Below are positions 1 through 21,100 of a stretch of 23,814 nucleotides of DNA, piece after piece. This DNA is from a virus (Duplodnaviria > Heunggongvirae > Uroviricota > Caudoviricetes). Position 1 is the first letter of the stretch; each line of letters opens with the position of its first letter. The notes under the pieces were generated by a model. That model was not told where the DNA came from. It saw only the letters and a list, made by a program, of their open reading frames with translations, and did no database searches. The DNA is taken from positions 1 through 23,814 of IMG/VR virus record IMGVR_UViG_2563366942_000005. The stretch is one strand, 5' to 3'. Both the position numbers and the translations under genes were made by a program.

Positions 1-1269
1 ATGAAGCTCACAGCCAGACAGGTCGAGACCGCAAAGCCAAAAGAAAAAACCTACAAAATGGCCGACGGCGGCGGTTTGTATCTCGAGATTTCGCCTAAGG
101 GGTCAAAATACTGGCGCATGAAATACAGACGCCCCTCAGACAAAAAAGAGGATCGCCTCGCTTTTGGTGTTTGGCCTACTGTGACGCTTGCTCAGGCAAG
201 AGCAAAGCGCGATGAAGCTAAAAAACTGCTAGTGCAGGGCATTGACCCAAAAGCCGAACAGAAAGAAGCTCAGGCCGAGAATTCGGGGGCATATACATTC
301 GAAACCATTGCTCGTGAATGGCACGCCAGTAACAAACGCTGGAGTGAAGACCATCGCTCGCGCGTTCTTCGCTATCTTGAGCTTTATATCTTCCCTCACA
401 TTGGTTCGTCCGACATTCGTCAGCTCAAGACTAGCCACCTGTTAGCCCCGATTAAAAAAGTTGATGCAAGTGGTAAGCATGACGTCGCGCAGCGACTTCA
501 GCAGCGTGTCACGGCTATCATGCGTTATGCAGTACAGAACGATTACATCGACTCAAATCCAGCCAGTGATATGGCTGGTGCTCTATCGACAACCAAAGCG
601 CGACATTACCCAGCTTTACCCTCTAGCCGGTTCCCTGAGTTTCTTGCACGTCTTGCTGCATATCGTGGCCGTGTAATGACACGGATCGCGGTTGAGCTTT
701 CCTTACTAACTTTTGTGCGTTCCAGTGAGTTGCGTTTTGCGCGTTGGGATGAATTCGACTTCGATAAATCTCTATGGCGCATACCTGCAAAACGAAAAGA
801 AATTAAGGGAGTGCGTTATTCGTATCGTGGTATGAAGATGAAAGAGGAGCATATCGTTCCGCTGAGTCGTCAGGCGATGAATTTGTTAGACCAGTTAAAG
901 CAGATTAGTGGTGATAAAGAGATGCTTTTCCCGGGGGATCATGACGCCACTAAGGTTATGAGTGAAAACACAGTGAATAGCGCATTGCGTGCGATGGGAT
1001 ATGACACAAAAACCGAAGTCTGCGGGCATGGGTTTAGGACGATGGCACGTGGTGCGTTGGGTGAGTCAGGATTATGGAGTGATGATGCTATAGAACGCCA
1101 ACTGAGCCATTCAGAGCGCAATAATGTTCGTGCAGCTTATATTCATACTTCTGAACATCTAGATGAGCGGCGTCTTATGGTTCAATGGTGGGCGGATTAT
1201 TTAGATATAAGTAAGCATTCTCAAGTCACTCCATATGAGTTTGCAAATATGCTTAAAGTTAAAAAGTAA
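1..1269 (+). CDS. int: P4-family tyrosine integrase (site-specific recombinase)
   Basis: 422-aa ORF with the typical P4-type integrase N-terminus (MKLTARQVETAKPK...DGGGLYLEISPKGSKYWRMKYR) and a C-terminal catalytic region (HGFRTMARGAL ... YIHTSEH). It is the first gene of the element and is oriented away from the presumed upstream tRNA. Confidence 0.9.
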   Translation: MKLTARQVETAKPKEKTYKMADGGGLYLEISPKGSKYWRMKYRRPSDKKEDRLAFGVWPTVTLAQARAKRDEAKKLLVQGIDPKAEQKEAQAENSGAYTFETIAREWHASNKRWSEDHRSRVLRYLELYIFPHIGSSDIRQLKTSHLLAPIKKVDASGKHDVAQRLQQRVTAIMRYAVQNDYIDSNPASDMAGALSTTKARHYPALPSSRFPEFLARLAAYRGRVMTRIAVELSLLTFVRSSELRFARWDEFDFDKSLWRIPAKRKEIKGVRYSYRGMKMKEEHIVPLSRQAMNLLDQLKQISGDKEMLFPGDHDATKVMSENTVNSALRAMGYDTKTEVCGHGFRTMARGALGESGLWSDDAIERQLSHSERNNVRAAYIHTSEHLDERRLMVQWWADYLDISKHSQVTPYEFANMLKVKK

Positions 1270-1291
1270 GAAATACCGGTCAAAAGCTAAC

Positions 1292-1759
1292 TTATTTTTT
1301 CTGCATTTGACCGAGTGTAATTACAGTTATTAATATGATGTGAATAATATTAAGAATGAGAATGTATAAACCACATTTCAAAATTGTCAATGCAACATTA
1401 AATGGCATTATGATAGCCACCATGCATAATAAAAATGTGACCAATAAAAAAACAATGCTCTGCCCATATAGATGGTAGAAGATATTTATATATCCTTGCT
1501 GTCGCCACTTTAGAAAAGAAGTTTTATCAGACACTGATATGATATAAGCACCAATTGCAGCAATGAATCCTGTCATTGTGAAACTAAAAGTACCTAATAG
1601 TGTAGCGATGCCAATTATACCTTCAGGTTTTATCTCTATGTATTGGTTTTCACAAAACACCGCAATGAGAGTAAAAATAACAGCAGTAAGAATGCTTACA
1701 CCCCATGTGGCTATATTAATTTTTACTATTGCTTGGTTAGTAAGCATTGTCATCCTCAA
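1292..1759 (-). CDS. Small multi-pass membrane protein (155 aa), hypothetical; putative effector of a two-gene cargo module
   Basis: The protein is dominated by about 4-5 long hydrophobic segments (e.g. WGVSILTAVIFTLIAVF, IIGIATLLGTFSFTMTGFIAAIGAYII, IVFLLVTFLLCMVAIIMPF, LYILILNIIHIILITVITL). Its start overlaps the upstream gene's stop (ATGA at 1756-1759). The region is AT-rich relative to the flanking satellite genes. Confidence 0.6.
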   Translation of the reverse strand: MRMTMLTNQAIVKINIATWGVSILTAVIFTLIAVFCENQYIEIKPEGIIGIATLLGTFSFTMTGFIAAIGAYIISVSDKTSFLKWRQQGYINIFYHLYGQSIVFLLVTFLLCMVAIIMPFNVALTILKCGLYILILNIIHIILITVITLGQMQKK

Positions 1760-2697
1760 CTTTTTGCTTTGTGGTAACTTTCTGTTTTTAGATCATTCCA
1801 CACTGGATCAATAATACCTGAATGTATGCGTCCAGTAAAATTTTGTGCGTATGTACTCAATTCACTTATCACAACTTGGTTTTTGTATCTTTTTTCAAGT
1901 ATTTGATCTTCAATCTTTACTTTGAGATGAGGGTTTATTATATCAAAAATATTCTGATTCTTATCTAAAATAAACTCTTTTACATTTGATTGAAATTCAT
2001 CTGCCTTGGCTCTGAAATAAATTTCTGCATACTCTTTATCTTCAGATGAAGATAAACTTGAGAGTAATGGTTGTATATAATCTTTCACATTCTCTTTTCT
2101 ATTTTTTCTTTTTACGATAATTTGCACTTCCATATTGTCTGATGGGGCCTTGCCAAACAATCCATTTATTACATCTCCAACAGAATCATTATTTAACTTC
2201 ACTCGTGCTTCAGTGATGAGTTTGAATTTTGTAGCCGATGTAGATTTGATTTCTATTTTTAATGTGCAAAGCTCGAAGGTGTAAATATGTGATTGAAAAT
2301 CTTGATTAATTATTTCGTTAATGAAGAATTGCAAATCATCAATGTCAGCATTACCTTTACCCTCGGTTACTCCGATTATTGAATGTTTAGGGTCAATAAA
2401 AAAGTAAGTAACTTTCTCTAGACTATCTTTACCAAGTACAGAAGCCAAATCATTTACTACACCAGTTGCTCTATCTACAGCTTTAAATGCTGTAGTAATT
2501 GCTGGCGTGGTCAAATAGTATATGCCATCAAATGAGGTGGGCATGGCTAGGTACAGTCTTTTTAACCCTTTGTTTTTCTCAAAAAGAGATTTTTTTCTAT
2601 GCAAACAAAAATTTTTGATAATATCTGAAATGTTATCAAAATAAACTTTTTGATTTCTATTGTCGGTTATTGTGTAAGTAAAATAATTTAACTTCAT
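1756..2697 (-). CDS. Hypothetical protein (313 aa), soluble, no recognisable motif; upstream partner of the membrane protein
   Basis: Long ORF with the start ATG at 2697 preceded by an AAAGAGA Shine-Dalgarno-like sequence. It is AT-rich and translationally coupled to the 155-aa membrane protein. It occupies the position of the P4 gop/beta/cII variable region between int and cos. Confidence 0.65.
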   Translation of the reverse strand: MKLNYFTYTITDNRNQKVYFDNISDIIKNFCLHRKKSLFEKNKGLKRLYLAMPTSFDGIYYLTTPAITTAFKAVDRATGVVNDLASVLGKDSLEKVTYFFIDPKHSIIGVTEGKGNADIDDLQFFINEIINQDFQSHIYTFELCTLKIEIKSTSATKFKLITEARVKLNNDSVGDVINGLFGKAPSDNMEVQIIVKRKNRKENVKDYIQPLLSSLSSSEDKEYAEIYFRAKADEFQSNVKEFILDKNQNIFDIINPHLKVKIEDQILEKRYKNQVVISELSTYAQNFTGRIHSGIIDPVWNDLKTESYHKAKS

Positions 2698-2942
2698 GTT
2701 CTCTTTCGCCTAGAGTGCTTATTTTTATATCATTGATCAGAAATATACTTTTAACAAGTATGCCTACTCATTTTTTTGGGTAGGTTCAATATATTATGTG
2801 TTGGTATTGTTCACCTGCATGCCTCGTAAGAGCATCAAACCTACTCTATGCATTTGCCACTGATCCATAATCGTTTATCTGCATACATCTATGATGTACT
2901 CAGGTTTCGAAAATAAATGTGCATCATTGCTATTGGCGCGCA

Positions 2943-2961
2943 GTGCTTTCCCCGCCTCGCC
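2943..2961. other. cos site (19-nt cohesive end sequence of P2/P4-type phages, reverse orientation)
   Basis: The sequence GTGCTTTCCCCGCCTCGCC at 2943-2961 is the reverse complement of GGCGAGGCGGGGAAAGCAC, which I recall as the P2/186/P4 cohesive end. It lies between the psu 3' end and the cargo cassette, as in P4. Confidence 0.75.
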
Positions 2962-3125
2962 CGCCCGCTTTGCAGGGCGGTTTTAATGCAGTTGCACAGT
3001 CACGCTCAGGCCGCGCCGGGAATGGCGCGGTCTGCAGAGAATGAGGCAGGAAAACGCATGCAAAGCCATGCACCTTATCGATGCATGGCTTTTTTCAGTA
3101 AAAACGGGCGGATTTTCGGGGAATT

Positions 3126-3698
3126 TTACACAGACTGACGTGATGCCAGTTGCGCACTTTTACGCGAAAAAATCATGTTCTGCGCAGGAGTGAATTTTTC
3201 ACGGCTGTCATCCACCGAAGCCGCGTCAGGCCTGAATCCGATGGTCGTTAAAATGTCGCTATCCTGTGCGGAATAATTAATTTTTTCACCCTTCGCAAGC
3301 CAGGACAGGAGGGCTTCACGCAGGGCATCTGTGGCACGCTGTATGGCACAGTTTCGGGCAATGGCCGTCAGCTCACTGTAGCCCATCAGCTCCGGTGCCA
3401 GTGCCGCCGCCAGTGCTGTGCCGTGCTGCTGCATAAAATCATTCAGCCGATCGCGGATGCTGATGTGCTGAACGGCTTCATGCGAACGAATATAACGACC
3501 GGCGGCCTGATTCACCTGCCATTTTCTGACTTCGATAATATTGCGTAATTCGTCCAGGCGACTGACGTTTCTGCCTTCTCCTGACAGAAGCCGCAGATAT
3601 TCCTGTTCGGCCGCAGCCAGCTCATTTTTGCGTTGCAGCCATGCTGCTTTGTTATTCTGACAGGTGTCAAAGGCCTGCTGTAAGGCTGTGCTTTCCAT
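3126..3698 (-). CDS. psu: Psu, polarity suppression protein / capsid decoration protein
   Basis: 190-aa ORF beginning MESTALQQAFDTCQNNKAAWLQRKNELAAAEQEY, which matches my recollection of P4 Psu in both length and N-terminal sequence. It is the last gene of the sid-delta-psu operon. Confidence 0.9.
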   Translation of the reverse strand: MESTALQQAFDTCQNNKAAWLQRKNELAAAEQEYLRLLSGEGRNVSRLDELRNIIEVRKWQVNQAAGRYIRSHEAVQHISIRDRLNDFMQQHGTALAAALAPELMGYSELTAIARNCAIQRATDALREALLSWLAKGEKINYSAQDSDILTTIGFRPDAASVDDSREKFTPAQNMIFSRKSAQLASRQSV

Positions 3699-3771
3699 CG
3701 TTATCTCTTTCTCATCATGCTGAAGAATAAAAATACGGTGTGCGGCGACGGCCGGTGTTAACCGGCAGCCC

Positions 3772-4272
3772 TCATTCCAGACGCAGCGAATATGATTGTG
3801 TTTTTAAGCGTACTGGCGGCAGTTCCTGTTTTTCATGCAGGCTTTCTGCCAGTTCGTCCGGCGTGACCGGGCGGACAATGAAGCGGTTGATGGTCTGAAG
3901 CGTTTTAAACACCAGACCACAGCCCGGATCCGTGCACACATAAAAACGCTCGGTGACTTCCTGAGACAGACGCCGCGATGTTCTTGACAGTGCAAGGCCT
4001 TTACATCTCCGACAACAATATCCGGTAACAAGCATTCTTTTCGGGCGTTTCATGCTACCGGAGGCTGACGTCAGTGAATCGCGGTATCTCTGTTTGCCTG
4101 AAATGTATTCCATTCCTGAATCTTTACTGTCAGAGAAAAAGCTTTCACTCGCTTCAAATGTCGCAGAGCAATAAATATTCCGGCACTGTGCAATCATTAT
4201 CTTGGTGCCATCGTCCATGAAATGTGCGCGACGGGTGTGAGCAACATGTCCACACGACGGGCAGTAAATCAT
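3772..4272 (-). CDS. delta: Delta, late-gene transcriptional activator (tandem Ogr-like zinc-finger domains)
   Basis: 166 aa with two Ogr-type Cys motifs (CPSCGHVAHTRR...CRNIYCSATF and CCRRCKGLALSRTSRR...CTDPGCGLVF). Size and duplicated-domain architecture match P4 Delta. Its start overlaps the sid stop. Confidence 0.9.
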   Translation of the reverse strand: MIYCPSCGHVAHTRRAHFMDDGTKIMIAQCRNIYCSATFEASESFFSDSKDSGMEYISGKQRYRDSLTSASGSMKRPKRMLVTGYCCRRCKGLALSRTSRRLSQEVTERFYVCTDPGCGLVFKTLQTINRFIVRPVTPDELAESLHEKQELPPVRLKTQSYSLRLE

Positions 4273-5003
4273 GACAGCAGTCCTCTGGCCTTAAGCTCTG
4301 CTCCCTGCTGGTCTATTTTGTCCTGCCACACCTTGCGCTGTGCCGGTGTGCCTGCCACCTCATAATCCATGTGCGGGAGTGTTGCCGCTGACAGTCCGGT
4401 CAGCCGGAGAACCGGCTCGCCGGTGAGGCTGATTTGCATCTGTTTAATTTTCTGTTCCAGCGATGATTTCACCTGCTGCATGACAGCCTTTTCCGGTGCG
4501 ACGTAGCCCTGATGGCCGGTGGTGTTGGCGAGCGGATTTTCCTGTACCAGGATACTCAGATGCATTGCCCGGACAAGCGCCTCACAGGTTTCATTCAGGG
4601 CGTGTTCCAGCTCATGCTCTGCATACAGACTCAGAAGGTGATGATGTGCCTTCCGGTAGGCGGTGGCCGTGCTGTCACACGCCCCTTTCAGGCGTTCACG
4701 TTCAAAATTCAGCACCACGGCCAGATTGTCATATTCCTGTACCAGCTCCCGGCGTGCCACGCGCTCAATGTGGCGCTGTTTCAGCTCGTCGCTCAGGACA
4801 CCACCGGCTGCACGAAAGGCCGTGCGCCAGTCGTCAGCGTCGTTTCCGTCGGCCTGCGCCAGCGCATTTTTTTCCTGCTCTGCCCGTTCAATGGCCGTGA
4901 CGGTCTCATCCATCAGACGGGCGTTCTCAAGATGGGCGGCTCTGGCCTTTTCCAGTTGTGCCAGCGCGGATTGCAGATATTCAGGGATGGTGTTGTCAGA
5001 CAT
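4269..5003 (-). CDS. sid: Sid, capsid size-determination (external scaffold) protein
   Basis: The ORF track gives 250 aa from an upstream Met. The ATG at 5003 (MSDNTIPEYLQ...) gives 244 aa, matching the P4 Sid length. The protein is alanine/glutamate-rich and helical in character, and is followed directly by delta and psu. Confidence 0.85.
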   Translation of the reverse strand: MSDNTIPEYLQSALAQLEKARAAHLENARLMDETVTAIERAEQEKNALAQADGNDADDWRTAFRAAGGVLSDELKQRHIERVARRELVQEYDNLAVVLNFERERLKGACDSTATAYRKAHHHLLSLYAEHELEHALNETCEALVRAMHLSILVQENPLANTTGHQGYVAPEKAVMQQVKSSLEQKIKQMQISLTGEPVLRLTGLSAATLPHMDYEVAGTPAQRKVWQDKIDQQGAELKARGLLS

Positions 5004-5172
5004 TTTCCGGCTCCTCGTCACTTCAGGTTAAGAAAATTGTGACGTACACCGGACAACAACACGACGCATTGCAGATGTGCCAGCCCTGACACAGGAGACT
5101 CATCCTCAGACCGGCAAGCCAGGAAAAGGTCGCAGGAAAAACCGGCTTACTGTTTGTTTTTTTATATTTTAC

Positions 5173-5276
5173 TGTTCACCTCTGTTCACCATAAGAAAAA
5201 AGATAAGTAATACAGTAAGTTAAAGGGTGAACAATCGCAGTAATGACTGTTCACCGTCTGTTCACCACTGTTCACC
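5173..5276. repeat. Cluster of TGTTCACC octamer iterons (P4 ori-like alpha-binding sites)
   Basis: Six exact copies of TGTTCACC or its complement GGTGAACA at 5173-5180, 5183-5190, 5226-5233, 5248-5255, 5259-5266 and 5269-5276, in the intergenic control region between sid and vis. The same octamer is reported as the P4 type I iteron. Confidence 0.7.
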
Positions 5277-5554
5277 CGTTGATGGGCTTTTTATGCTGTT
5301 TATTACTGTTTATTTTTATTAATTAACTGAAATAAATAAGAAAAAACAATTTGCATTTCACTATAAAAAATTCCAGGTCCTTCAGAACCCTTTGAGACCC
5401 TTCCAGTCCGGATGGATAAAAAACACACAGCCATTGTAAGGTTGCCGGAACAAATTCCCCCTGTTGCGTCTGCTGAAAATATTCACAAAATAAAGCGCTA
5501 CCCGAAGCCGGACGGACTTATCCGGTGCTGTATGGACATTAACGAGGTAGCCCG

Positions 5555-5821
5555 ATGCAAGCTGTTTTTTCTTCCCCGTCTCCCGCCCCTGTTACGCCAC
5601 TGATGCCGCTGCCGGACATCACGCAGGAGCGTTTTTTACGTCTGCCGGAAGTGATGCACCTGTGCGGCCTGTCACGCTCGACCATCTATGAACTCATCCG
5701 TAAGGGGGAATTTCCGCCGCAGGTGAGTCTTGGCGGTAAAAATGTGGCCTGGCTGCACTCTGAAGTCACCGCATGGATGGCCGGACGCATTGCCGGACGC
5801 AAACGGGGGGACGACGCATGA
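5555..5821 (+). CDS. vis: AlpA/Vis-family small DNA-binding regulator (excisionase-like helix-turn-helix)
   Basis: 88-aa ORF with the AlpA-type core ([46 protein letters not shown]). GAGG lies upstream of the ATG. Position is equivalent to P4 vis (orf88). Confidence 0.8.
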
Positions 5822-6210
5822 TGATGCCCGCTCTGCAAAAACTCCCTTTTTCTGGCTTGCCTTTTTCCGGCATTTGCGGATATAGTTTTTCCGCTGCCGC
5901 AAAATCGGCAGCCGGGCGTAGGAACCCGTGTAACTCGAAGGCGACATATGACGCGCCATGCGTCTTTTTTTGTGTCGCAATCAACGCCACAGAGCGCCAG
6001 ATTATGGTGTGGCGTGTGGTTTGCCGTGCAGGTATGATCCTGTTCGCAATCGCATGTTATGCCACTGAGTCAATGGTAGCTCAGGCGGGGCAGCCTCCGG
6101 GCTGGCCGGTATTCTTCGAGGCCGGTATTCCTACCCCCGTCTGGGCTATCGCCATCGAGCGTAGGAACTCCGGCGATAGCAGTTATTTGCTACTCGAAGG
6201 AGACTGCCTT

Positions 6211-6408
6211 ATGGCTACAACCCTTACCCCTTCACACCCTGAATTTGTCTTTGTGTTTGCGGCTGTCCGTCGCGCAGACCGTCATCCCCGTATCTGCATG
6301 CTTCGCACCGTCGCCGGTGATGAACGCAGCGCCCGCCGTTCCCTTGTCCGTGACTATGTGCTCTCCCTTGCTGCCCGTCTGCCGGTGGTGGAGGTGTCCC
6401 GTGCGTAA
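6211..6408 (+). CDS. Small hypothetical protein (65 aa) in the satellite early/immunity region
   Basis: ATG at 6211 preceded by AAGGAG. Its stop overlaps the GTG start of the next ORF. The upstream part of the 211-aa six-frame ORF containing it has a non-protein-like composition and is not called. Confidence 0.35.
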
Positions 6409-6688
6409 TAAAAAAGCCCCTCAGACCGTCTCAGCACGTCATGACGCCCGTGAACACCTCAGCATTGAGGCTTACCATAAGCTCAACCGCGCCAGCGCCG
6501 TATCCCAGTTTGTTGGGGGTGATTTGATTCACCGTGAACTCTCCGGCCTGCATCAGCTCTACATTCCGCATATTTTCAGCTACCTGAATGAAGATATTGA
6601 TTTTGTGCTGAATGAGCTGAAAGCCAAAGGCCTGTGCCGCGATTTTCTCGCCCAGCAGAAAGACCGGGGAGACAGGACGCATGTTTGA
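6401..6688 (+). CDS. Small early protein, epsilon-like by position (possible helper-derepression protein); start uncertain (GTG 6401, or upstream ATGs at 6356/6320/6245)
   Basis: ORF immediately upstream of the 151-aa and 106-aa genes and alpha. A GTG start coupled to the preceding stop gives 95 aa. The assignment rests on position and size only. Confidence 0.4.
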
Positions 6689-7136
6689 TTTTCCCCAGCC
6701 CGGTGAGATTTACCGTTCTGCCGGTTTTCCCGATGTGGCCGTGGTCGGCATTCTGGAAGACGGTATTCCGTGGGAAATGCCGTACCGCTGCCCGGAAATT
6801 GTCTGGAACCCGTACCGCCGTAAATTCAGTATCCTTGTGCGTATCCTCGCTGACGGGCGCACCACAGACATCCCGCTGGGGCGTTTTCTGCGGGAATTTA
6901 CCTGTGACCGTCCTGACCTGTTCAGACGCAGCCCCGTAAACCGGCATGCGGTACTGAAAGAAATGGCCGGAGACCCGGAATTACAGAAATGGCGGGAGAA
7001 ATATCTGGATATTTACCCGCAGGACCCTGTTCCGGTCAGCCGGGCGGCACCGGTGGCGCGGGAATGGCGGGAAATTCCCCGCACGGAGCCTGACCCGGAA
7101 ATCACCCCGGATAACAGTTACCGCAATTATCTGTAA
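6681..7136 (+). CDS. P4 orf151-like early protein
   Basis: 151-aa ORF with GGAGA upstream of the ATG, overlapping the previous stop. Size and position upstream of orf106/alpha match P4 orf151. Confidence 0.6.
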   Translation: MFDFPQPGEIYRSAGFPDVAVVGILEDGIPWEMPYRCPEIVWNPYRRKFSILVRILADGRTTDIPLGRFLREFTCDRPDLFRRSPVNRHAVLKEMAGDPELQKWREKYLDIYPQDPVPVSRAAPVAREWREIPRTEPDPEITPDNSYRNYL

Positions 7137-7271
7137 TTAAAAAACGACACCCGAAAAATTAAATGTGCGTATTCGCGCAGGGATACGCACGTCTTCAGGA
7201 GACGCAGATATGCCTTATCAGTTAATGCAACCGGCACGGAATGCAGTCATCTGTCACAGGGAGGAAAGCAA

Positions 7272-7592
7272 ATGAAAACACCCTTACCGCCCGTCTTACG
7301 CGCAGCCCTTTACCGTCGTGCTGTCGCCTGTGCCTGGCTGACCGTGTGCGAACGTCAGCACCGCTACCCGCATCTCACCCTTGAATCACTGGAGGCGGCC
7401 ATCGCCGCTGAGCTGGAAGGCTTTTATCTGCGCCAGCACGGTGAGGAAAAAGGGCGTCAGATAGCCTGTGCCCTGCTGGAAGATTTAATGGAATCCGGCC
7501 CCCTGAAGGCCGCGCCGTCGCTGTCCTTTCTCGGGCTGGTTGTGATGGATGAACTCTGTGCCCGTCACATAAAAGCGCCGGTACTGCACTGA
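7272..7592 (+). CDS. P4 orf106-like protein (possibly Cnr-like copy-number regulator)
   Basis: 106-aa ORF with a strong Shine-Dalgarno sequence (GGGAGGAAAG) immediately upstream of alpha. The Cnr identity is from memory of P4 literature and was not verified. Confidence 0.55.
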
Positions 7593-7606
7593 AGGAGAAC
7601 AACACC

Positions 7607-9940
7607 ATGAAAATGAACGTAACCGCCACCGTCAGCCATGCGCTCGGCCACTGGCCGCGTATTCTCCCGGCGCTGGGGATTCAGGTGCTGAAAAACCGTC
7701 ATCAGCCCTGTCCGGTCTGTGGCGGGAGTGACCGCTTCCGTTTTGATGACAGGGAGGGGCGCGGCACCTGGTACTGCAATCAGTGTGGTGCCGGTGACGG
7801 CCTGAAACTGGTTGAAAAGGTGTTTGGTGTCTCCCCGTCCGACGCGGCCACAAAGGTGGCTGCCGTGACCGGCAGCCTGCCACCGGCTGACCCGGCAGTG
7901 ACGACCGCCGCCGTTGCTGAAACAGACGCTGCCCGGAAGAACGCCGCCACACTGGCACAAACCCTGATGGCGAAAACCCGTACCGGAACCGGTAACGCCT
8001 ACCTGACCCGCAAGGGCTTTCCCGGCCGGGAATGCCTGATGCTGACCGGCACACACAGAGCCAGTGGCGTGAGCTGGCGCGCCGGTGACCTTGTGGTGCC
8101 ACTGTATGACGACAGCGGCGAACTGGTTAACCTTCAGTTAATCAGTGCTGACGGCCGTAAGCGCACCCTGAAAGGCGGACAGGTCAGGGGCACCTGTCAC
8201 ACCCTTGAAGGACAGAATCAGGCCGGAAAACGTCTGTGGATAGCGGAGGGATACGCGACCGCACTTACCGTGCATCACCTGACCGGTGAAACGGTGATGG
8301 TGGCGCTTTCTTCCGTGAACCTCCTTTCTCTGGCCAGCCTTGCCCGGCAGAAGCATCCGGCCTGTCAGATTGTCCTTGCCGCAGACCGTGACCTCAGCGG
8401 TGACGGCCAGAAAAAAGCCGCCGCAGCCGCAGATGCGTGTGAGGGTGTTGTTGCCCTGCCGCCGGTCTTCGGTGACTGGAATGATGCCTTCACGCAGTAC
8501 GGCGGGGAAGCCACCCGTAAGGCCATTTATGATGCCATCCGGCCACCGGCTGAAAGCCCGTTCGACACCATGAGCGAAGCGGAGTTTTCCGCCATGAGTA
8601 CCAGCGAAAAGGCCATGCGTATCTATGAGCATTACGGCGAGGCGCTCGCGGTCGATGCCAACGGCCAGCTTCTGTCCCGCTATGAAAATGGTGTCTGGAA
8701 GGTGCTGCCGCCACAGGACTTTGCCCGGGATGTGGCCGGGCTGTTTCAGCGTCTGCGCGCGCCGTTCTCCTCCGGGAAGGTGGCCTCCGTGGTGGACACC
8801 CTGAAGCTGATTATTCCGCAGCAGGAAGCCCCCTCCCGCCGCCTGATTGGCTTTCGTAACGGCGTGCTCGACACGCAGAACGGTACGTTCCACCCGCACA
8901 GTCCGTCACACTGGATGCGCACCCTGTGCGATGTGGATTTCACCCCGCCGGTGGACGGTGAAACGCTGGAAACCCACGCTCCCGCGTTCTGGCGCTGGCT
9001 TGACCGTGCTGCCGGTGGTCGTGCGGAAAAACGCGACGTGATTCTGGCCGCACTGTTTATGGTGCTGGCAAACCGCTACGACTGGCAGCTCTTTCTGGAG
9101 GTGACCGGTCCCGGCGGCAGCGGCAAAAGTATCATGGCCGAAATAGCCACCCTGCTGGCCGGGGAGGATAACGCCACATCGGCCACCATTGAGACGCTGG
9201 AATCCCCGCGTGAACGTGCCGCGTTAACTGGCTTCTCACTGATACGCCTGCCGGACCAGGAAAAATGGAGCGGCGACGGTGCCGGACTCAAGGCCATCAC
9301 CGGCGGCGATGCGGTGTCCGTTGACCCGAAATACCGGGATGCATACTCCACGCATATCCCGGCGGTAATTCTGGCCGTGAACAATAACCCGATGCGCTTC
9401 ACCGACCGCAGCGGCGGCGTGTCACGCCGGCGGGTGATTATTCACTTCCCGGAACAGATAGCCCCGCAGGAGCGCGACCCGCAGCTTAAGGACAAAATCA
9501 CCCGCGAGCTGGCGGTCATCGTGCGTCACCTGATGCAGAAGTTCAGCGACCCGATGCTCGCCCGGTCACTGCTTCAGTCCCAGCAGAACTCAGACGAGGC
9601 GCTGAACATCAAACGGGATGCCGACCCAACGTTTGATTTTATCGGCTATCTGGAAACCCTGCCGCAGACCAGCGGCATGTATATGGGGAACGCCAGTATC
9701 ATCCCGCGCAATTACCGTAAATACCTCTATCACGCCTATCTGGCCTACATGGAGGCAAACGGCTACCGGAATGTACTCAGTCTGAAAATGTTCGGGCTGG
9801 GGCTGCCGGTGATGCTGAAGGAATACGGACTGAATTACGAGAAGCGCCATACCAAACAGGGGATACAGACCAACCTGACGCTGAAAGAGGAAAGCTACGG
9901 CGACTGGCTGCCAAAATGTGACGACCCTGCAACAACCTGA
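7607..9940 (+). CDS. alpha: Alpha protein: bifunctional primase-helicase with origin-binding domain
   Basis: 777 aa, the same length as P4 alpha. It has an N-terminal zinc-binding primase motif (CPVCGGSDRF...CNQCGAGDG), a Walker A motif in the central helicase domain (GPGGSGKS) and a C-terminal DNA-binding region. Confidence 0.95.
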   Translation: MKMNVTATVSHALGHWPRILPALGIQVLKNRHQPCPVCGGSDRFRFDDREGRGTWYCNQCGAGDGLKLVEKVFGVSPSDAATKVAAVTGSLPPADPAVTTAAVAETDAARKNAATLAQTLMAKTRTGTGNAYLTRKGFPGRECLMLTGTHRASGVSWRAGDLVVPLYDDSGELVNLQLISADGRKRTLKGGQVRGTCHTLEGQNQAGKRLWIAEGYATALTVHHLTGETVMVALSSVNLLSLASLARQKHPACQIVLAADRDLSGDGQKKAAAAADACEGVVALPPVFGDWNDAFTQYGGEATRKAIYDAIRPPAESPFDTMSEAEFSAMSTSEKAMRIYEHYGEALAVDANGQLLSRYENGVWKVLPPQDFARDVAGLFQRLRAPFSSGKVASVVDTLKLIIPQQEAPSRRLIGFRNGVLDTQNGTFHPHSPSHWMRTLCDVDFTPPVDGETLETHAPAFWRWLDRAAGGRAEKRDVILAALFMVLANRYDWQLFLEVTGPGGSGKSIMAEIATLLAGEDNATSATIETLESPRERAALTGFSLIRLPDQEKWSGDGAGLKAITGGDAVSVDPKYRDAYSTHIPAVILAVNNNPMRFTDRSGGVSRRRVIIHFPEQIAPQERDPQLKDKITRELAVIVRHLMQKFSDPMLARSLLQSQQNSDEALNIKRDADPTFDFIGYLETLPQTSGMYMGNASIIPRNYRKYLYHAYLAYMEANGYRNVLSLKMFGLGLPVMLKEYGLNYEKRHTKQGIQTNLTLKEESYGDWLPKCDDPATT

Positions 9941-9956
9941 CCCTCATAACTCATCT

Positions 9957-9980
9957 GACCGGCATCTGCCGGTCTTTTTT
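9957..9980 (+). terminator. Putative intrinsic terminator downstream of alpha
   Basis: GC-rich hairpin GACCGGCATCTGCCGGTC followed by TTTTTT, 17 nt after the alpha stop codon. Confidence 0.6.
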
Positions 9981-9998
9981 CATCCCTGAATCCCCCGA

Positions 9999-10275
9999 AG
10001 GTGAACAATCCACTGTTCACCCTTCACCGTATATTCACCAGTTATCACACTGAAATTAAAAGAGAAAAACGAAAGGTGAACAGTGTGAACAATCAAATCA
10101 AAAAAAACTTTTTTCTTCCTGAGTGATTTCAGTGCGGAGGATTAATCACCGGTATGAGTCACACCGGCAGAATGCCGGAGGTGAAGAATCGAATGTTCAC
10201 CCTTCACCCATTATTCACCACCTATCACTCTGAAATAAAAGGAGAAAACAGAAAGGTGAACAGTGTGAACAGTTC
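9999..10275. repeat. Tandem direct repeat (two imperfect units of about 100 bp, period about 180 bp), each carrying TGTTCACC/GGTGAACA iterons plus an A-tract/T-tract; crr-like cis replication region
   Basis: Unit 1 (about 9999-10100) and unit 2 (about 10179-10280) align along their length. Full octamers lie at 10000-10007, 10014-10021, 10075-10082, 10194-10201 and 10255-10262, with degenerate copies between. Each unit ends in an A8/T6-type tract. Confidence 0.7.
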
Positions 10276-10484
10276 TTTCGAAAAAAAATTTTTTATGTGG
10301 ATAAAAGATGCACTGGTTTGGATCCGAGCTACGGATCCAAACTTACTGATTAAAAATGATTTAACTTTCCGATTTATTGATGGGCTGAAAATAGATTGGT
10401 CAGAAAAACAGTGGGGGCACAAAAGGGGGCATATTTCATTGTTGTGTTTTATTATTTGTTTTTTATCATTAACTTATTTTGATG

Positions 10485-10506
10485 TTTGAGTCCGGCCTTC
10501 GCACCA
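10485..10506 (+). other. attR: partial direct repeat of a tRNA-Leu 3' end (integration-site core)
   Basis: TTTGAGTCCGGCCTTCGCACCA closely resembles the 3' end of E. coli leuX tRNA (TTCGAGTCCGGCCTTCGGCACCA, from memory), with no tRNA body upstream. The position just past alpha/crr is where attR is expected. Confidence 0.6.
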
Positions 10507-10895
10507 CATCGTATGCAAATCGAGTCGCTCAAGGGCGGCTTTTTTTGTGCCTGTGTTTTCACTACTTTGTTTGTATGTAACGCTGATAATCTAAGAACTT
10601 CGGAAGCCCCATTCCCATCAATGATGTTCATTCATCATCCTGAAAATTAAGTAGATATAAAACTTCATTGCCTTGGTCTAATGGCTCAGGAAATAGATTG
10701 CATTTAGCGAGTGGCATTCTTAATGTGCCATTGTTTAGCCATGAAACGATGCGTAAAATTGCTGATTTTATGTGTCAAAGGCCCGCAACCGGAGATGTCC
10801 TTACTTCAAGGATCAACCACTATTGGCGTATCCTTTTACTATCTTGATTCAATTCAGCAGGTTATCGTCAAAAGTACAGCGAAGAGAGAGAAAAG

Positions 10896-13787
10896 ATGAT
10901 TGGTACAACACCTTATCATGCGAAATATTTTGCGCATGAACTTTCCATTCTCCATTCAAACAATGGGGTGGACCGTCTGTCTCAATCGCTGTTTGATGCA
11001 AGCGTAGATCTAAATCCTCATCAAATTGAGGCGGCTCTTTTTGCTATTGAAAATCCGCTAAGCAAAGGTGTTGTGCTTGCCGATGAAGTTGGTTTAGGTA
11101 AAACCATTGAAGCGGGGTTAGTGCTTTGCCAGTTGTGGGCTGAAAGAAAACGTAAACTGTTGATCATTTGTCCTGCTTCACTGCGTCGCCAATGGGCGAG
11201 CGAGTTACAGGAAAAGTTCAATCTACCTTCTCAGGTGTTGGACGCGAAAACGTATAGCCAGCTTCAAAAAGAAGGGATCCATAATCCCTTAAATAATAAA
11301 TCGATCACTATCATGTCATACCACTATGCTGCTCGGTTAGAAGAAAAATTGGTGGCTGAAATGTGGGATCTGGTTGTTATCGACGAAGCCCATAAACTGC
11401 GTAATGCTCATCGAGAAAGTAACAAAATGGGGCAAGCGTTAAAGCGTGCGCTTGATGGGCGGAAAAAATTACTACTGACCGCAACGCCTTTACAGAATTC
11501 GTTAATGGAACTGTATGGCATGTCGACGCTTATAGATGAACATACCTTCGGCGAAGTTAAAGCGTTCAGAAAGCAATATATGCAGGCAGATAGCGATATT
11601 GCGGAGTTGAAGGGGCGATTGTCGCGTTTTATCAAACGAACTTTACGCAAGAATGTGCTGGAGTACATCAAGTATACAGAACGTAAAGCGATCACTATTC
11701 CTTTCTATCCGAGCGAACAGGAGCAGGATCTTTATGAACGCGTACAAAAATTGCTTGAACGTGAGGATAGCTATGCCTTACCAAAACGACACCGGCATCT
11801 GACGGGGCTTATTCTCAGAAAGCTACTTTCCTCAAGTACGAAAGCTGTATTGAATAACTTGCAGATCCTTAAGAGTCGTTTAGAAAGGTTAAAGCTGGAA
11901 GGTATCGTTGAAGATGATATGAACATCATCCAACAGATCATAATGGATGACGATCTTGAAGATGACATCGTGGAAGATGCCGAATCAGTGGCTTTAGATA
12001 CCGAGTGCAAAGTTGTCGATTCAGACGCGCTTCAGGCAGAAATCAATGAGCTGGAATCACTCATTGTCAAAGCAGAACAGATTGGCACTGATACCAAATC
12101 AAAAGAGTTGCTTTCTGGCCTGGAGCAAGGTTTTGCACAGCTTGCCGAAATGGGGGCTGCAAAAAAAGTCATCATCTTCACGGAGTCAATGCGAACTCAA
12201 CAGTATCTTGCACATTTTCTGGAAAACAATGGCTACCAGGGGAAAGTAGTAACCTTTAGTGGCACAAACAATACACCGCAGGCAAACAAGATCTACCAGC
12301 AATGGCGCGAGGAATATCAGGGATCTTCTCGTATTACCGGGTCGGCGCAAATTGATAAACGCTCGGCTTTGATCGACCACTTCAAAGATCATGCTGAAAT
12401 CATGATAGCTACAGAAGCTGCAGCTGAAGGGGTGAACCTGCAATTTTGTTCGCTACTGATCAATTACGATTTACCCTGGAACCCACAACGCATTGAACAG
12501 CGTATTGGACGTTGTCACCGATACGGGCAAAAATTTGATGTGGTTGTTATTAACTTCCTCAATCAGCGAAACCAGGCCGATCAACGCGTTCTTGAACTCT
12601 TAACTGAAAAGTTCAGCCTGTTTGATGGCGTGTTTGGCGCATCGGATAGTGTGCTTGGCAGCATAGAAAATGGTGTGGATTTTGAAAAAAGGATCCAGTC
12701 AATTTATGAGTCATGCCGTACCCCCGAGGAGATAGAGCTGGCTTTTGAAAGGTTGCAGAAAGAGCTGGAAGATGAAATCAATCTCAAGATGCAGAAGACG
12801 CAAGAACAGTTGCTTGAGCATTTTGATGAAGATATTCACGATATCCTTAAAATAAGGCTTGATGAAGCTCGGGAGCGTCTGGATAAAGTCGGTCGTTGGT
12901 TTTGGGCCGTGACCTGTCAGCAGCTCAAACAATATGCTGATTTTGATCATGAGCATCATCGTTTCACTTTACGTGAATCAGTAAATGAACTGCCTGTCGG
13001 GCAGTACCAGCTGTTGCGCAAAGATGGTAGGCAAAATAGTGCGTTACAAATGCAGGATCACCACAGTTTTGCATATCGGATCAATCATCCGCTGGGTGAG
13101 TACGTCATTGAGGGGGCTAAGGTCCAGGAGACGAAAACAGCTGAAGTCATCTTCGATTACAGTAACCACACAACGAAAGTCTCGGTGGCTGAGCAGCTGA
13201 AAGGGCAATCAGGGTGGTTAACACTAAATTTGCTTACTGTTGATGCGTTTAACAGGCAGCAATTTTTAGTCTTTACCGCAAAAACTGACAACGGACGTGT
13301 GGTAGATGGTGAAGCTTGTAAACGTCTGTTCAACTTGTCTGCAATAACCAACGAAAAGCTGGATAATTCGGCAAGTTCAGATGCATTACCTGATGACTTG
13401 ATCTTACTCAAGAACAGGCAAATTGACGCCAGACTTGCGGAAGTTCTGGAGCAGAACAATGTCCTTTTTGAAGCTGAAAGAGATAAGCTGGAAAAATGGG
13501 CTGAAGATATGATCTTTGCGGCGGAAGAAGCATTACGCGATACCAAAATGCAAATCAAGTCGTTAAAGCGAGAAGCCAGACTGGCGCAATCGATGGAAGA
13601 ACAAAAGCAAAACCAGGAAAAGCTGAAGCTACTGGAACGGCAGCAGAAACGCCAACGTATGGAAATTTTTGACATTGAAGATGAGATCGCTGACAAGCGG
13701 GATGAACTCATCAGTGCCCTTGAAGAGCGGATGAAGCAAAAAACGGATATCACCGAGCTTTTTTCCATCCGCTGGAAAGTTATTTAA
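10896..13787 (+). CDS. SNF2-family (SWI2/SNF2) helicase/ATPase with about 400-aa coiled-coil-rich C-terminal extension; DrmD-like
   Basis: 963 aa with helicase motifs I (LADEVGLGKT), II (VVIDEAHKLRN), III (LLTATPLQNS) and VI (QRIGRCHRYGQ). It is the first gene of an AT-rich three-gene operon, with AGAGAGAAAAG upstream of the ATG. Confidence 0.9.
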   Translation: MIGTTPYHAKYFAHELSILHSNNGVDRLSQSLFDASVDLNPHQIEAALFAIENPLSKGVVLADEVGLGKTIEAGLVLCQLWAERKRKLLIICPASLRRQWASELQEKFNLPSQVLDAKTYSQLQKEGIHNPLNNKSITIMSYHYAARLEEKLVAEMWDLVVIDEAHKLRNAHRESNKMGQALKRALDGRKKLLLTATPLQNSLMELYGMSTLIDEHTFGEVKAFRKQYMQADSDIAELKGRLSRFIKRTLRKNVLEYIKYTERKAITIPFYPSEQEQDLYERVQKLLEREDSYALPKRHRHLTGLILRKLLSSSTKAVLNNLQILKSRLERLKLEGIVEDDMNIIQQIIMDDDLEDDIVEDAESVALDTECKVVDSDALQAEINELESLIVKAEQIGTDTKSKELLSGLEQGFAQLAEMGAAKKVIIFTESMRTQQYLAHFLENNGYQGKVVTFSGTNNTPQANKIYQQWREEYQGSSRITGSAQIDKRSALIDHFKDHAEIMIATEAAAEGVNLQFCSLLINYDLPWNPQRIEQRIGRCHRYGQKFDVVVINFLNQRNQADQRVLELLTEKFSLFDGVFGASDSVLGSIENGVDFEKRIQSIYESCRTPEEIELAFERLQKELEDEINLKMQKTQEQLLEHFDEDIHDILKIRLDEARERLDKVGRWFWAVTCQQLKQYADFDHEHHRFTLRESVNELPVGQYQLLRKDGRQNSALQMQDHHSFAYRINHPLGEYVIEGAKVQETKTAEVIFDYSNHTTKVSVAEQLKGQSGWLTLNLLTVDAFNRQQFLVFTAKTDNGRVVDGEACKRLFNLSAITNEKLDNSASSDALPDDLILLKNRQIDARLAEVLEQNNVLFEAERDKLEKWAEDMIFAAEEALRDTKMQIKSLKREARLAQSMEEQKQNQEKLKLLERQQKRQRMEIFDIEDEIADKRDELISALEERMKQKTDITELFSIRWKVI

Positions 13788-13807
13788 TTGATTTGAAAGA
13801 GAAAATA

Positions 13808-16800: not shown

Positions 16801-16929
16801 ATCAATGGCGATCATAACTTACCTACCGCCTTTACCGTTGATGAAGAAGACGGCGAGATTGTTCGTAGCCTGAAAATCCGCCAGATCGAACCTGAATTCT
16901 TGAACCTGATGTTTGCGGAGGAGGTTTAA
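13808..16929 (+). pseudogene. Large beta-class N6-adenine DNA methyltransferase (about 1040 aa if fused), split by a frameshift near 15229-15271
   Basis: The N-terminal ORF (frame 2) ends at 15271 just after ...GDNYQALNLLKKN. Frame 1 is open from 15229 and reads SVIDCVHIDPPYN (motif IV, DPPY) and then DFFAGSGTSGHSVIELN (motif I, FxGxG). The two halves are one methyltransferase with the frame shifted inside an A-rich stretch (GAAGAAAAATATAAT). Start ATG taken at 13808 (MSKYNEL...). Confidence 0.8.
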
Positions 16930-17291
16930 GAATGGCTAAAAAACCAACCACCGGTAAAGCTGTTAAAAAAGAGACAAACAGCAAACTGAGCTTTCATAAG
17001 CAACTGGTTTTGAACCGCTTTATGTTCCATTTTTTTAAAGATGGCACATTGCAAGGTTTAAAGAATCGGTTAGGTGAAGATCGCTTTGAAGGCATCCATG
17101 AAGATGGCCAAAGCTTGTTCTTCCATGAGCTGAGTAACTATTTATTCGAGGTCGATCTTATCGATCTCGATGAACTGCGTCGTTACGATCTCAATATCGT
17201 ACAGCACTGGCAGCAGATAACTGAGCACCGTAATCGGGTGATGCTGCCAACTTACTGATTTAGTGTATGATGGTGTTTTTGAGGTGCTCCA

Positions 17292-17567
17292 GTGGCTTCT
17301 GTTTCTATCAGCTGTCCCTCCTGTTCAGCTACTGACGGGGTGGTGCGTAACGGCAAAAGCACCGCCGGACATCAGCGCTATCTCTGCTCTCACTGCCGTA
17401 AAACATGGCAACTGCAGTTCACTTACACTGCTTCTCAACCCGGTACGCACCAGAAAATCATTGATATGGCCATGAATGGCGTTGGATGCCGGGCAACTGC
17501 CCGCATTATGGGCGTTGGCCTCAACACGATTTTACGTCACTTAAAAAACTCAGGCCGCAGTCGGTAA
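17292..17567 (+). CDS. insA: IS1 InsA (transposition inhibitor / N-terminal part of InsAB' transposase)
   Basis: 91-aa protein [42 protein letters not shown]..., matching IS1 InsA. Confidence 0.95.
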
Positions 17568-20900: not shown

Positions 20901-21100
20901 ATCTTGAACATAAATTATCGGATGATAACTTATCATTAAGTGCATTTATTGTTTCTGAAACTTGTTATGTTGACTTAGTAAACGTACCTGACTCAAAAGA
21001 AAATCTGGAAGCCAGAAATGTGCTTTTTATTGAGGATACAGGCCCCGTTTATCTGGAGAAGTTATTCAGTAAGATGGTTAGCGAGTAAATAATTATGATT

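What the first reader, a model, noticed from the sequence alone, without database searches (positions are those of the whole stretch)
2943..2961. Intact cos site adjacent to the cargo cassette implies the cargo is packaged and transduced with the satellite
The 19-nt P2/P4-type cohesive-end sequence is present with no mismatch to the sequence I recall. Together with intact psu, delta, sid, alpha and int, it suggests a functional satellite that can hijack a P2-like helper capsid. The unknown two-gene cassette sits within about 250 bp of cos and would be transferred horizontally at high frequency.
Basis: partly seen in the sequence, partly recalled or inferred. Interest (0 to 1): 0.4.

Follow-up and report, generated by a model that had tools for sequence, protein, structure and literature searches.

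The report
P4 satellite cos beside RexAB cargo
The 19-base packaging (cos) sequence is real and lies in an apparently complete P4-type phage satellite next to a RexAB-like anti-phage gene pair, but this layout and this exact gene pair were already published in 2022, so the finding is correct and ordinary.

Summary
Window 2943-2961 (minus strand) is GGCGAGGCGGGGAAAGCAC. It is identical to the cohesive end of P4 and P2, with no chance matches expected. It sits inside the roughly 55-bp P2/P4 cos core (window about 2932-2996).

Window 1-10506 is a P4-like prophage of about 10.67 kb. It has full-length int, psu, delta, sid, vis, the CI RNA, epsilon, cnr, alpha, ori, crr and an attR core. attL lies outside the window.

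The "unknown" cassette is a distant RexA/RexB pair. It replaces P4 gop-beta-cII in the known int-psu defence hotspot.

Rousset et al. 2022 already state that this hotspot adjoins cos. They list exactly these proteins and cloned the same cassette (pFR86). It appears only among their "additional tested systems", not the validated ones.

Packaging and transfer frequency cannot be tested in silico. Being close to cos is not what gets the cargo packaged, because everything between the att sites is packaged.

One extra result: the att-to-cos arm (int plus cargo) is nearly identical across strains whose other arm differs by 2-3%. The switch falls at cos. This fits the published speculation that cos drives hotspot exchange.

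Verdict: already known, low interest.

The parts
2943..2961 (-). 19-nt P2/P4 cohesive-end sequence (cos cleavage region), GGCGAGGCGGGGAAAGCAC
   Evidence: Exact unique match with 0 expected by chance. Identical to P4 1-19 and P2 cosL/cosR.
2932..2996 (.). Conserved cos core shared by the window, P4 and P2 (the ~55-bp core of Ziermann and Calendar 1990). It marks the boundary between the variable cargo and the P4 backbone.
   Evidence: Alignment of the window, P4 and P2 cos junctions. P2-like phages match window 2936-2996. The right-arm relative L021 becomes homologous from window 2932. The 63-bp core is found in 2430 of 5426 E. coli genomes. The 55-bp core is cited in PMC5694545.
2961..2980 (+). 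G+C-rich hairpin followed by TTTT, inside the cos core. The window has T at 2974 where P4 and P2 have C, which gives a G-T wobble.
   Evidence: Terminator-like hit, alignment. The fold is no more stable than shuffled sequence, z = 0.16. L021 also has T at 2974.
1..1269 (+). P4-family tyrosine integrase (422 aa), part of the att-to-cos 'left arm'
   Evidence: Pfam Arm-DNA-bind_3, Phage_int_M and Phage_integrase. 94.6% amino-acid identity to P4 Int residues 5-414. 89.5% nucleotide identity to P4 int.
1292..1747 (-). RexB-like small membrane protein (151 aa, four hydrophobic segments)
   Evidence: PADLOC RexB E = 6.6e-6. Hydropathy layout like lambda RexB. Annotated as hypothetical protein WP_016235352 in relatives.
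1756..2697 (-). RexA-like protein (313 aa)
   Evidence: Pfam RexA PF15969, 43.1 bits against a cutoff of 25, E = 5e-11. hhalign against lambda RexA gives 82.7% probability, E = 9.5e-6. Equals WP_000775192, listed as 'RexA' in Rousset 2022 Table S1.
2698..2931 (.). Cargo-specific A+T-rich intergenic region, presumably holding the cassette promoter. It belongs to the left arm and has no homology to P4.
   Evidence: No similarity to P4 beyond about 10 nt past the cohesive end. Identical in L002, L015 and pFR86. No convincing sigma-70 consensus on the minus strand in this stretch.
3126..3698 (-). psu (capsid decoration and polarity suppression)
   Evidence: 99.5% amino-acid identity to P4 Psu. Pfam Psu.
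3772..4272 (-). delta (activator of helper late genes)
   Evidence: 98.2% amino-acid identity to P4 Delta. Pfam Ogr_Delta, two matches.
4269..5003 (-). sid (capsid size determination)
   Evidence: 99.2% amino-acid identity to P4 Sid, full length.
5173..5276 (.). ori: six TGTTCACC type-1 repeats bound by alpha
   Evidence: The P4 record annotates these as ori type 1 repeats.
5555..5821 (+). vis/orf88 (AlpA-type excisionase and regulator)
   Evidence: 97.7% identity to P4 ORF88. Pfam Phage_AlpA.
5880..6156 (+). P4 immunity region: C4/CI antisense RNA (6069-6156) and its a1b1 target (5880-5932)
   Evidence: Rfam RF01695 at 74.4 bits and RF03163 at 49.1 bits, both above gathering score.
6401..6688 (+). 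epsilon (derepression of the helper prophage)
   Evidence: 98.9% identity to P4 Epsilon. Pfam Derepression.
7272..7592 (+). cnr/orf106 (copy-number regulation)
   Evidence: 100% identity to P4 ORF106.
7607..9940 (+). alpha (primase-helicase)
   Evidence: 99.2% identity over 776 of 777 aa. Pfam primase, Toprim and D5 domains.
9995..10294 (.). crr: two 120-bp repeats carrying TGTTCACC sites
   Evidence: P4 annotation.
10488..10506 (+). attR core GAGTCCGGCCTTCGCACCA. It is 19 nt, one G shorter than the leuX 3' end and the P4 reference attP core. It marks the right end of the satellite.
   Evidence: P4 homology ends at 10506. The same 19-nt form is the norm elsewhere.

Best explanation
Window 1-10506 is a leuX-integrated P4-like phage satellite. 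Its cos site (the 19-nt cohesive-end sequence within a ~55-bp core) sits where it does in P4, between psu and the int-proximal accessory hotspot.

In this element the hotspot holds a distant RexA/RexB-type two-gene cassette in place of P4 gop-beta-cII.

The inferred mechanism follows P4 biology and was not tested here. On infection by, or induction of, a P2-type helper, Epsilon and Delta cross-activate the helper. Vis and Int excise a circle of about 10.67 kb, and Alpha replicates it from ori/crr. Sid and Psu remodel helper capsids to the small size. The helper terminase then cuts at cos and packages the whole circle.

The cargo is therefore carried along because it lies between the att sites, not because it is near cos.

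cos has a second role in this lineage: it is the boundary of a recombination module. The arm from att to cos (int plus cargo) is shared almost unchanged among satellites whose other arm has diverged.
For: Shown by the sequence:
- Exact 19-mer, unique in the window.
- The cos junction is contiguous with the P4 right end. Window 2962-10506 equals P4 11624-4078 at 97.4%.
- The core is conserved with P2 and P4. The two differences from P4 are at 2942, where the window carries the P2 base, and at 2974, which stays base-paired (G-T) and recurs in the close relative L021.
- An at-least-99%-identical 63-bp core occurs in 224 E. coli records.
- All P4 core proteins are full length. The CI RNA and its targets are present. 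The ori and crr repeats are present.
- The unit length is about 10,670 bp.
- The cargo is RexA/RexB-like.
- The same cassette lies at the same position, next to cos, in Klebsiella satellites (exact cos) and Serratia satellites (a 3-mismatch cos variant). In Pectobacterium it is at the same position, but no cos was identified.

Module boundary:
- There are 0 differences from L002 and L015 over window 1-2973, then about 2.7% divergence.
- Pairwise among four strains: left arm 0-7 differences in 2942 bp, right arm 163-204 in 7526 bp, chromosomal flank 10-55 in 1268 bp.
- The best right-arm relative (99.3%) carries a different int and a different cargo, and its homology starts at window 2932.
- pFR86 from E. 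marmotae is identical on the cargo side and 5.9% different on the psu side.

Literature:
- All P4-hotspot systems in their Tables S2A and S2B, which include pFR86, were tested against P2 and four P2-like phages, and only TIR-NLR protected (PMC9122126). By that report the RexAB-like cassette does not block the helpers tested.
Against: - There is no direct evidence of excision, circularisation or packaging for this element.
- No attP junction of this lineage was found in JGI metagenome contigs.
- The only IMG/VR copy is a predicted prophage in an isolate genome.
- attL, the upstream tRNA and any helper prophage are outside the window.
- The window has one cos-core substitution (T at 2974) that neither P2 nor P4 has. 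Its effect on terminase recognition is unknown.
- The attR core is one base shorter than attL. This proved to be the normal state for such elements, but its effect on excision was not measured.
- The arm-identity pattern could come from ordinary homologous recombination using the cos core and the tRNA as anchors. That would not prove that cos was cut.
Confidence: 0.85

Rival explanations
1. The element is a domesticated or cryptic satellite. cos and the genes are still intact in sequence, but the element no longer excises or is no longer mobilised, for lack of a compatible helper or because of an att defect. The cargo would then spread only by chromosomal recombination or vertical descent.
For: The attR core is 19 nt against 20 nt in attL. 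No excised form of this lineage was found in the collections. All 21 E. coli copies are at the same chromosomal locus next to tRNA-Leu where checked. The helper is not visible in the window.
Against: The 19-nt core is the usual non-tRNA att copy. It was seen in 16 of 17 metagenome hits, in the IMG/VR tandem junction and in 6 of 6 E. coli loci with different flanks, so it is not private decay. Every core gene is full length at 98-100% identity to functional P4. The left arm is nearly identical in strains whose neighbouring chromosomal DNA differs by up to 4%, which argues for recent horizontal movement.
Confidence: 0.12
2. The 19-mer belongs to a P2-like helper prophage or is a chance G+C-rich match, and is not a satellite cos.
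For: P2-like phages carry the same 19-mer and core.
Against: The sequence immediately to the right is P4 psu and the P4 right end at 97% identity. No P2 structural genes are in the window. Chance expectation is 0.
Confidence: 0.01
3. The sharp identity switch at cos reflects ordinary RecA-mediated homologous recombination that uses the conserved cos core and the tRNA/att region as short anchors. It would not involve cos cleavage or Int.
For: The cos core (about 60 bp) and the tRNA are the only stretches conserved between different left arms, so any homologous exchange would appear to end there.
Against: Nothing here separates the two. Divergence resumes 4 nt after the att core and within 13 nt of the cohesive end. 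That is tighter than typical homology-anchor requirements but still compatible with them.
Confidence: 0.4

Closest known systems
Satellite phage P4 (NC_001609): cos and overall organisation
   Same: Identical 19-nt cohesive end. Same order: int - hotspot - cos - psu - delta - sid - ori - vis - CI RNA - epsilon - orf151 - cnr - alpha - crr - att. The backbone is 97.4% identical over 7.5 kb.
   Different: gop-beta-cII (P4 20-2706) is replaced by a 1.7-kb RexAB-like cassette. int is only 89.5% identical at the nucleotide level. There are two substitutions in the cos core. The attR core is one G shorter than the P4 attP core. The element is about 0.95 kb shorter.
P4-like satellite defence hotspot of Rousset et al. 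2022 (PMC9122126), system 22 'RexA | RexB' and plasmid pFR86 'RexAB-like'
   Same: Same locus (between int and psu, adjacent to cos). Same proteins (WP_000775192 plus WP_016235352 or WP_000957222). The pFR86 insert is identical to the window over cos and 127 nt of the cargo side.
   Different: pFR86 comes from E. marmotae with a different psu-side arm (15 differences in 253 nt). The paper lists it only among 'additional tested systems', so no defence phenotype is reported for it.
Phage lambda RexA/RexB exclusion system
   Same: Two adjacent co-oriented genes, with rexA first and then a small four-segment membrane protein. Pfam RexA is above threshold. Profile-profile match to lambda RexA. PADLOC RexB hit.
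   Different: No significant pairwise BLASTP similarity to either lambda protein. RexA-like is 313 aa against 279 aa. It is carried by a satellite rather than in a lambdoid immunity region. No phenotype is known.
Phage P2 cos (NC_001895) and the 55-bp P2-family cos core (Ziermann and Calendar 1990)
   Same: The 19-mer is identical and the flanking core is conserved. The window even shares the P2 base (T) immediately after the cohesive end.
   Different: In P2 the variable old/tin hotspot lies on the opposite side of cos from the P4-type hotspot, for the same orientation of the 19-mer. The hairpin differs at 3 positions.

Membership tests
P2/P4-type cos site | 19-nt cohesive-end sequence GGCGAGGCGGGGAAAGCAC | tested here: met
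   0 mismatches, unique in the window. Equals P4 1-19 and P2 cosL.
P2/P4-type cos site | Conserved ~55-bp core around the cohesive end | tested here: met
   Three-way alignment. The window differs from P4 at 2 positions and from P2 at 3. The core concept is cited from PMC5694545 and PMC9122126.
P2/P4-type cos site | Cleavage and packaging by P2-family terminase | not testable with these tools
   Needs a transduction or in vitro cleavage assay.
P4-like satellite (complete, 'type A') | Core genes int, psu, delta, sid, alpA/vis, ash-epsilon region and alpha, in the conserved order | tested here: met
   tblastn against P4 proteins, all full length. Pfam domains.
P4-like satellite (complete, 'type A') | P4 immunity RNA (CI/C4) and replication cis elements (ori, crr) | tested here: met
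   Rfam C4 and c4-a1b1 above gathering score. TGTTCACC occurs 6 times at ori and 5 times at crr.
P4-like satellite (complete, 'type A') | Flanking attL and attR direct repeats at a tRNA gene | tested here: inconclusive
   attR core at 10488-10506 (19-nt form). attL and tRNA-Leu are outside the window but present in the relatives L002, L005, L015 and L016.
   About 10,670 bp, inferred from attR here and the attL offset in relatives. The limit is quoted in PMC9122126.
P4-like satellite (complete, 'type A') | Helper-dependent excision, replication and transduction | not testable with these tools
   No excised or virion-derived copy found.
RexAB-type exclusion system | RexA-family protein | tested here: met
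   Pfam PF15969 at 43.1 bits, above the cutoff of 25. hhalign 82.7% probability against lambda RexA. Pairwise BLASTP is not significant.
RexAB-type exclusion system | Adjacent small polytopic membrane partner (RexB) | tested here: met
   PADLOC RexB E = 6.6e-6. Four hydrophobic segments as in lambda RexB. The gene lies 8 nt downstream of rexA-like on the same strand. BLASTP is not significant.
RexAB-type exclusion system | Phage exclusion or abortive-infection phenotype | not testable with these tools
   The published clone pFR86 is listed only under 'additional tested systems', not the validated ones.
P4 int-psu defence hotspot (Rousset et al. 2022) | Variable cassette between int and psu, directly adjacent to cos | tested here: met
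   The cargo occupies 1270-2931 between int and the cos core. The exact accessions are in their Table S1.

The most novel reading that the evidence does not exclude
The att-to-cos arm (int plus defence cargo) behaves as a discrete, exchangeable module whose two ends are the satellite's two site-specific DNA-processing sites. Chimeras could arise without general recombination in two ways. One is cos-to-cos packaging across tandem prophages, such as the tandem seen in L017. The other is Int-mediated resolution of heterodimers joined through their identical cohesive ends. That would make cos the mechanical cause of defence-hotspot turnover and would explain why integrases co-vary with cargo. Rousset et al. 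2022 speculated about cos ends plus a second homologous crossover. An att-bounded, recombination-independent route has not been shown, to my knowledge.
Probability: 0.3. Interest if true: 0.45.

Novelty: already known. Interest (0 to 1): 0.15.

Why it matters
The locus is a clean, textbook-quality example of a defence cassette riding on a P4-like satellite next to cos. That explains how small anti-phage systems move among Enterobacterales.

It adds nothing conceptually new. The cos-adjacent hotspot, this exact RexAB-like cassette and its cloning are all in Rousset et al. 2022.

The modest added value is a base-resolution view of the exchange. The int-cargo arm is almost clonal across diverged backbones and hosts, and the switch falls within about 13 nt of the cohesive end and 4 nt of the att core. 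This is the pattern expected if cos, and possibly att, is where hotspot exchange happens. It also suggests a simple experiment with tandem or mixed lysogens.

Tried and rejected
- Chance match or P2 prophage origin of the 19-mer: rejected.
- attR 1-nt deletion as a sign of a dead element: at first it looked like decay. It was rejected because the same 19-nt core occurs with four different right flanks in E. coli, at another element's end in E24377A, at a tandem junction in IMG/VR, and in 16 of 17 metagenome hits.
- Search for an excised or virion form: an attP-type pattern in viral contigs gave only a tandem array. A lineage-specific attP pattern in metagenomes gave nothing. The IMG/VR relative L018 is a prophage call in an isolate genome.
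- Cargo annotation: NCBIfam and PHROGs gave no hit for either protein. PADLOC gave no hit for RexA-like. BLASTP against lambda RexA and RexB was not significant. A PDB profile search gave no hit. Only the Pfam, PADLOC-RexB and hhalign profile methods link the pair to Rex.
- cos-core hairpin as an unusually stable structure: no better than shuffled sequence, z = 0.16.
- Exact source genome: none of the 5426 complete E. coli genomes matches the whole window. The best is F163, at 97% coverage and 98.3% identity, and it lacks the IS1.
- Structure prediction and the large protein searches were not used further because the cassette identity was settled by the literature match.

Full report
**1. Observation**

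Window 2943-2961 reads GTGCTTTCCCCGCCTCGCC on the plus strand. That is GGCGAGGCGGGGAAAGCAC on the minus strand.
- The 19-mer occurs once in the window. No shuffle gave a match even when three mismatches were allowed.
- It equals bases 1-19 of the P4 record and the annotated cosL and cosR of P2.
- Window 2962 continues into the last base of the linear P4 record, so the circular cos junction is rebuilt exactly as in P4.

**2. What surrounds it**

BLAST against P4 divides the left part of the window into three pieces.
- Window 1-1208 is P4 int at 89.5% identity.
- Window 1209-2942 has no P4 counterpart. It replaces gop, beta and cII.
- Window 2962-10506 is P4 11624-4078 at 97.4% identity, ending at the att core.

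All P4 proteins are full length.

| Protein | Amino-acid identity to P4 |
|---|---|
| Psu | 99.5% |
| Delta | 98.2% |
| Sid | 99.2% |
| Vis/ORF88 | 97.7% |
| Epsilon | 98.9% |
| ORF151 | 97.4% |
| Cnr | 100% |
| Alpha | 99.2% |
| Int (P4 residues 5-414) | 94.6% |

Other P4 elements are also present.
- Rfam finds the P4 CI (C4) antisense RNA and its a1b1 target.
- The alpha-binding octamer TGTTCACC occurs six times at ori and five times in the two crr repeats.
- The window starts at the int start codon that RefSeq annotates in relatives. tRNA-Leu and attL lie just upstream, outside the window.
- From the attL offset in relatives and attR at 10488, the element is about 10,670 bp, or 92% of P4.

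**3. Extent of cos**

I aligned the cos junctions of the window, P4 and P2. A conserved block runs from about 35 nt on the psu side to 7-11 nt on the cargo side of the cohesive end (window about 2932-2996). This matches the "55-bp core" attributed to Ziermann and Calendar 1990.

Within the block the window differs from P4 at two positions.
- At 2942 the window has T, which is the P2 base.
- At 2974 the window has T where P4 and P2 have C. This lies in a G+C-rich hairpin and keeps a G-T pair. The closest right-arm relative, L021, also has T here.

The 63-bp core is found in 2430 of 5426 complete E. coli genomes, with 224 records at 99% identity or above. This is a common, ordinary cos allele.

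**4. The cargo**

The two genes are 1756-2697 and 1292-1747, both on the minus strand.
- The 313-aa protein hits Pfam RexA above threshold (E = 5e-11). Its family profile aligns to lambda RexA at 82.7% probability, E = 9.5e-6.
- The 151-aa protein hits PADLOC RexB (E = 6.6e-6). It has four hydrophobic segments arranged as in lambda RexB.
- Pairwise BLASTP against the lambda proteins is not significant. NCBIfam, PHROGs and the PDB sequence search gave nothing.

The pair is therefore a distant RexAB-type system, presumably an abortive-infection or exclusion system. I infer that only from family membership.

**5. It is already published**

Rousset et al. 2022 (PMC9122126) cover the finding.
[quoted passage not shown] They note that P4 uses the P2 terminase and shares the core cos.
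- Their Table S1 lists WP_000775192 plus WP_016235352 (or WP_000957222) as "RexA + hypothetical". These are the accessions annotated on this cassette in relatives.
- Their system 22, "RexA | RexB" (listed with the number 69), begins with the window's RexA-like sequence.
- They cloned the same cassette from E. marmotae as pFR86, "RexAB-like". The insert is identical to the window over cos and 127 nt of the cargo side.
- pFR86 is in Table S2B, "additional tested systems", not in the table of validated systems.
- The paper states that all P4-hotspot systems in Tables S2A and S2B were tested against P2 and four P2-like phages, and that only TIR-NLR protected. By that report the cassette does not block the helpers tested.

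**6. Evidence on mobility**

The cargo region is at least 99.6% identical in 20 complete E. coli genomes from pigs, cattle, humans, a dog, a chicken, a frog, river water and marine sediment.

Homologues at 84-96% amino-acid identity occur in Salmonella, Lelliottia, Klebsiella, Serratia and Pectobacterium. In Klebsiella, Serratia and Pectobacterium the gene again lies in a P4-like satellite between a 422-aa integrase and delta or psu.
- Klebsiella has an exact cos.
- Serratia has a 3-mismatch cos variant in the same place.
- In Pectobacterium no cos was identified.

No excised or virion-derived copy of this lineage was found. Actual packaging therefore remains an inference from P4 biology.

**7. 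A recombination boundary at cos**

Several comparisons show the same pattern.
- Against the relatives L002 and L015, the window has no differences over positions 1-2973. It then has about 2.7% divergence beginning at 2974, which is 13 nt beyond the cohesive end.
- Pairwise among four cassette-bearing strains:

| Segment | Differences | Length (bp) |
|---|---|---|
| Chromosomal flank | 10-55 | 1268 |
| attL to int | 0 | 182 |
| int-cargo arm | 0-7 | 2942 |
| cos | 0 | 19 |
| Other arm | 163-204 | 7526 |

- The best relative of the window's right arm (99.3% identity, homologous from window 2932 onward) has a different integrase (88.9%) and an unrelated two-gene cargo.
- Its divergence from L002, a stand-in for the window's left arm, starts 4 nt after the att core.
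- pFR86 shows the same switch in a different species.

The att-to-cos arm is thus inherited as a module. This fits the speculation by Rousset et al. that cos ends seed recombination at the hotspot. It also fits the remark by de Sousa and Rocha that integrases are often exchanged.

Whether the exchange uses cos cutting and Int, or plain homologous recombination anchored in the cos core and the tRNA, cannot be decided here.

**8. The att caveat, resolved**

The attR core (GAGTCCGGCCTTCGCACCA) is one G shorter than the leuX 3' end and the P4 reference attP. I first read this as possible decay.

The same 19-nt form appears widely:
- in all five related E. coli prophages, with four different right flanks;
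- at the end of an unrelated element in E24377A;
- at a tandem-satellite junction in an IMG/VR contig;
- in 16 of 17 metagenome hits.

It is the normal non-tRNA att copy for leuX-targeting elements, so it is not evidence against function.

**9. Verdict**

It overreaches in three ways:
- Proximity to cos is not what gets the cargo packaged.
- High transfer frequency is untested.
- The cassette is not unknown.

The arrangement and this exact cassette are already in the literature. Interest is low. The only modest addition is the base-level mapping of the module boundary to cos and att.

Noticed in passing
window 1-2973 versus 2974-10506: The att-to-cos arm (int plus RexAB-like cargo) is 0-0.24% divergent among relatives. 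The rest of the satellite is 2.2-2.7% divergent. The switch falls within 13 nt of the cohesive end, and in relatives within 4 nt of the att core. The best right-arm relative carries a different int and a different cargo.
   Followed up: yes
window 10488-10506: The attR core is GAGTCCGGCCTTCGCACCA, one G shorter than the leuX 3' end and the P4 reference attP. The same 19-nt form is found in 16 of 17 metagenome hits and in all the E. coli loci examined. This suggests that the element-borne att copy normally has this form and that strand exchange lies to its right.
   Followed up: partly
window 10896-21088: Just outside attR lies a three-gene system: a DrmD-like SNF2 helicase, a large type III-like methyltransferase and a helicase/restriction subunit. 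It is intact in strains F163 and E24377A. Here the methyltransferase has a 1-nt deletion near 15253 that splits it into ORFs 13793-15271 and 15361-16929. The restriction/helicase gene is interrupted by IS1 at 17237-18003 with a 9-bp target duplication.
   Followed up: partly
window 21750-22679 (-): An HNH-domain protein matches the NCBIfam 'phosphorothioated DNA-binding restriction endonuclease' model (E = 1e-131). It appears intact. The nanS sialate O-acetylesterase gene follows at 22834-23814.
   Followed up: no
window 5893-5970 (+): An Rfam isrK Hfq-binding sRNA hit (72 bits) overlaps the c4-a1b1 target region of the P4 immunity locus. It is probably the same P4 leader transcript under another family name.
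   Followed up: no
window 2808-2815 (+): One exact copy of the alpha-binding octamer TGTTCACC lies in the cargo-specific intergenic region, 128 nt from cos. About 0.8 copies are expected by chance in the whole window, so it may be a coincidence.
   Followed up: no
L002 21281-21320 (E. coli EC556, attR): In this relative the attR core is followed by three tandem copies of CTTCGCAC (GAGTCCGGCCTTCGCACCTTCGCACCTTCGCACCA). This is a small repeat expansion inside the att scar.
   Followed up: no
L017 (IMGVR_UViG_3300009036_000460) 2430-14194: Two P4-like satellites sit in tandem with different integrases (419 and 422 aa) and different cargos. They are joined by a 19-nt variant att core. Cos-to-cos packaging across such an array would yield an arm-swapped chimera.
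   Followed up: partly
L011/L012 5438-5457 (Serratia marcescens satellites): The cos position between delta and the RexA-like gene carries GGCGAGGCGGGGGAAGTAT, which has 3 mismatches to the P2/P4 19-mer. It presumably matches the cohesive ends of local Serratia P2-like helpers.
   Followed up: no
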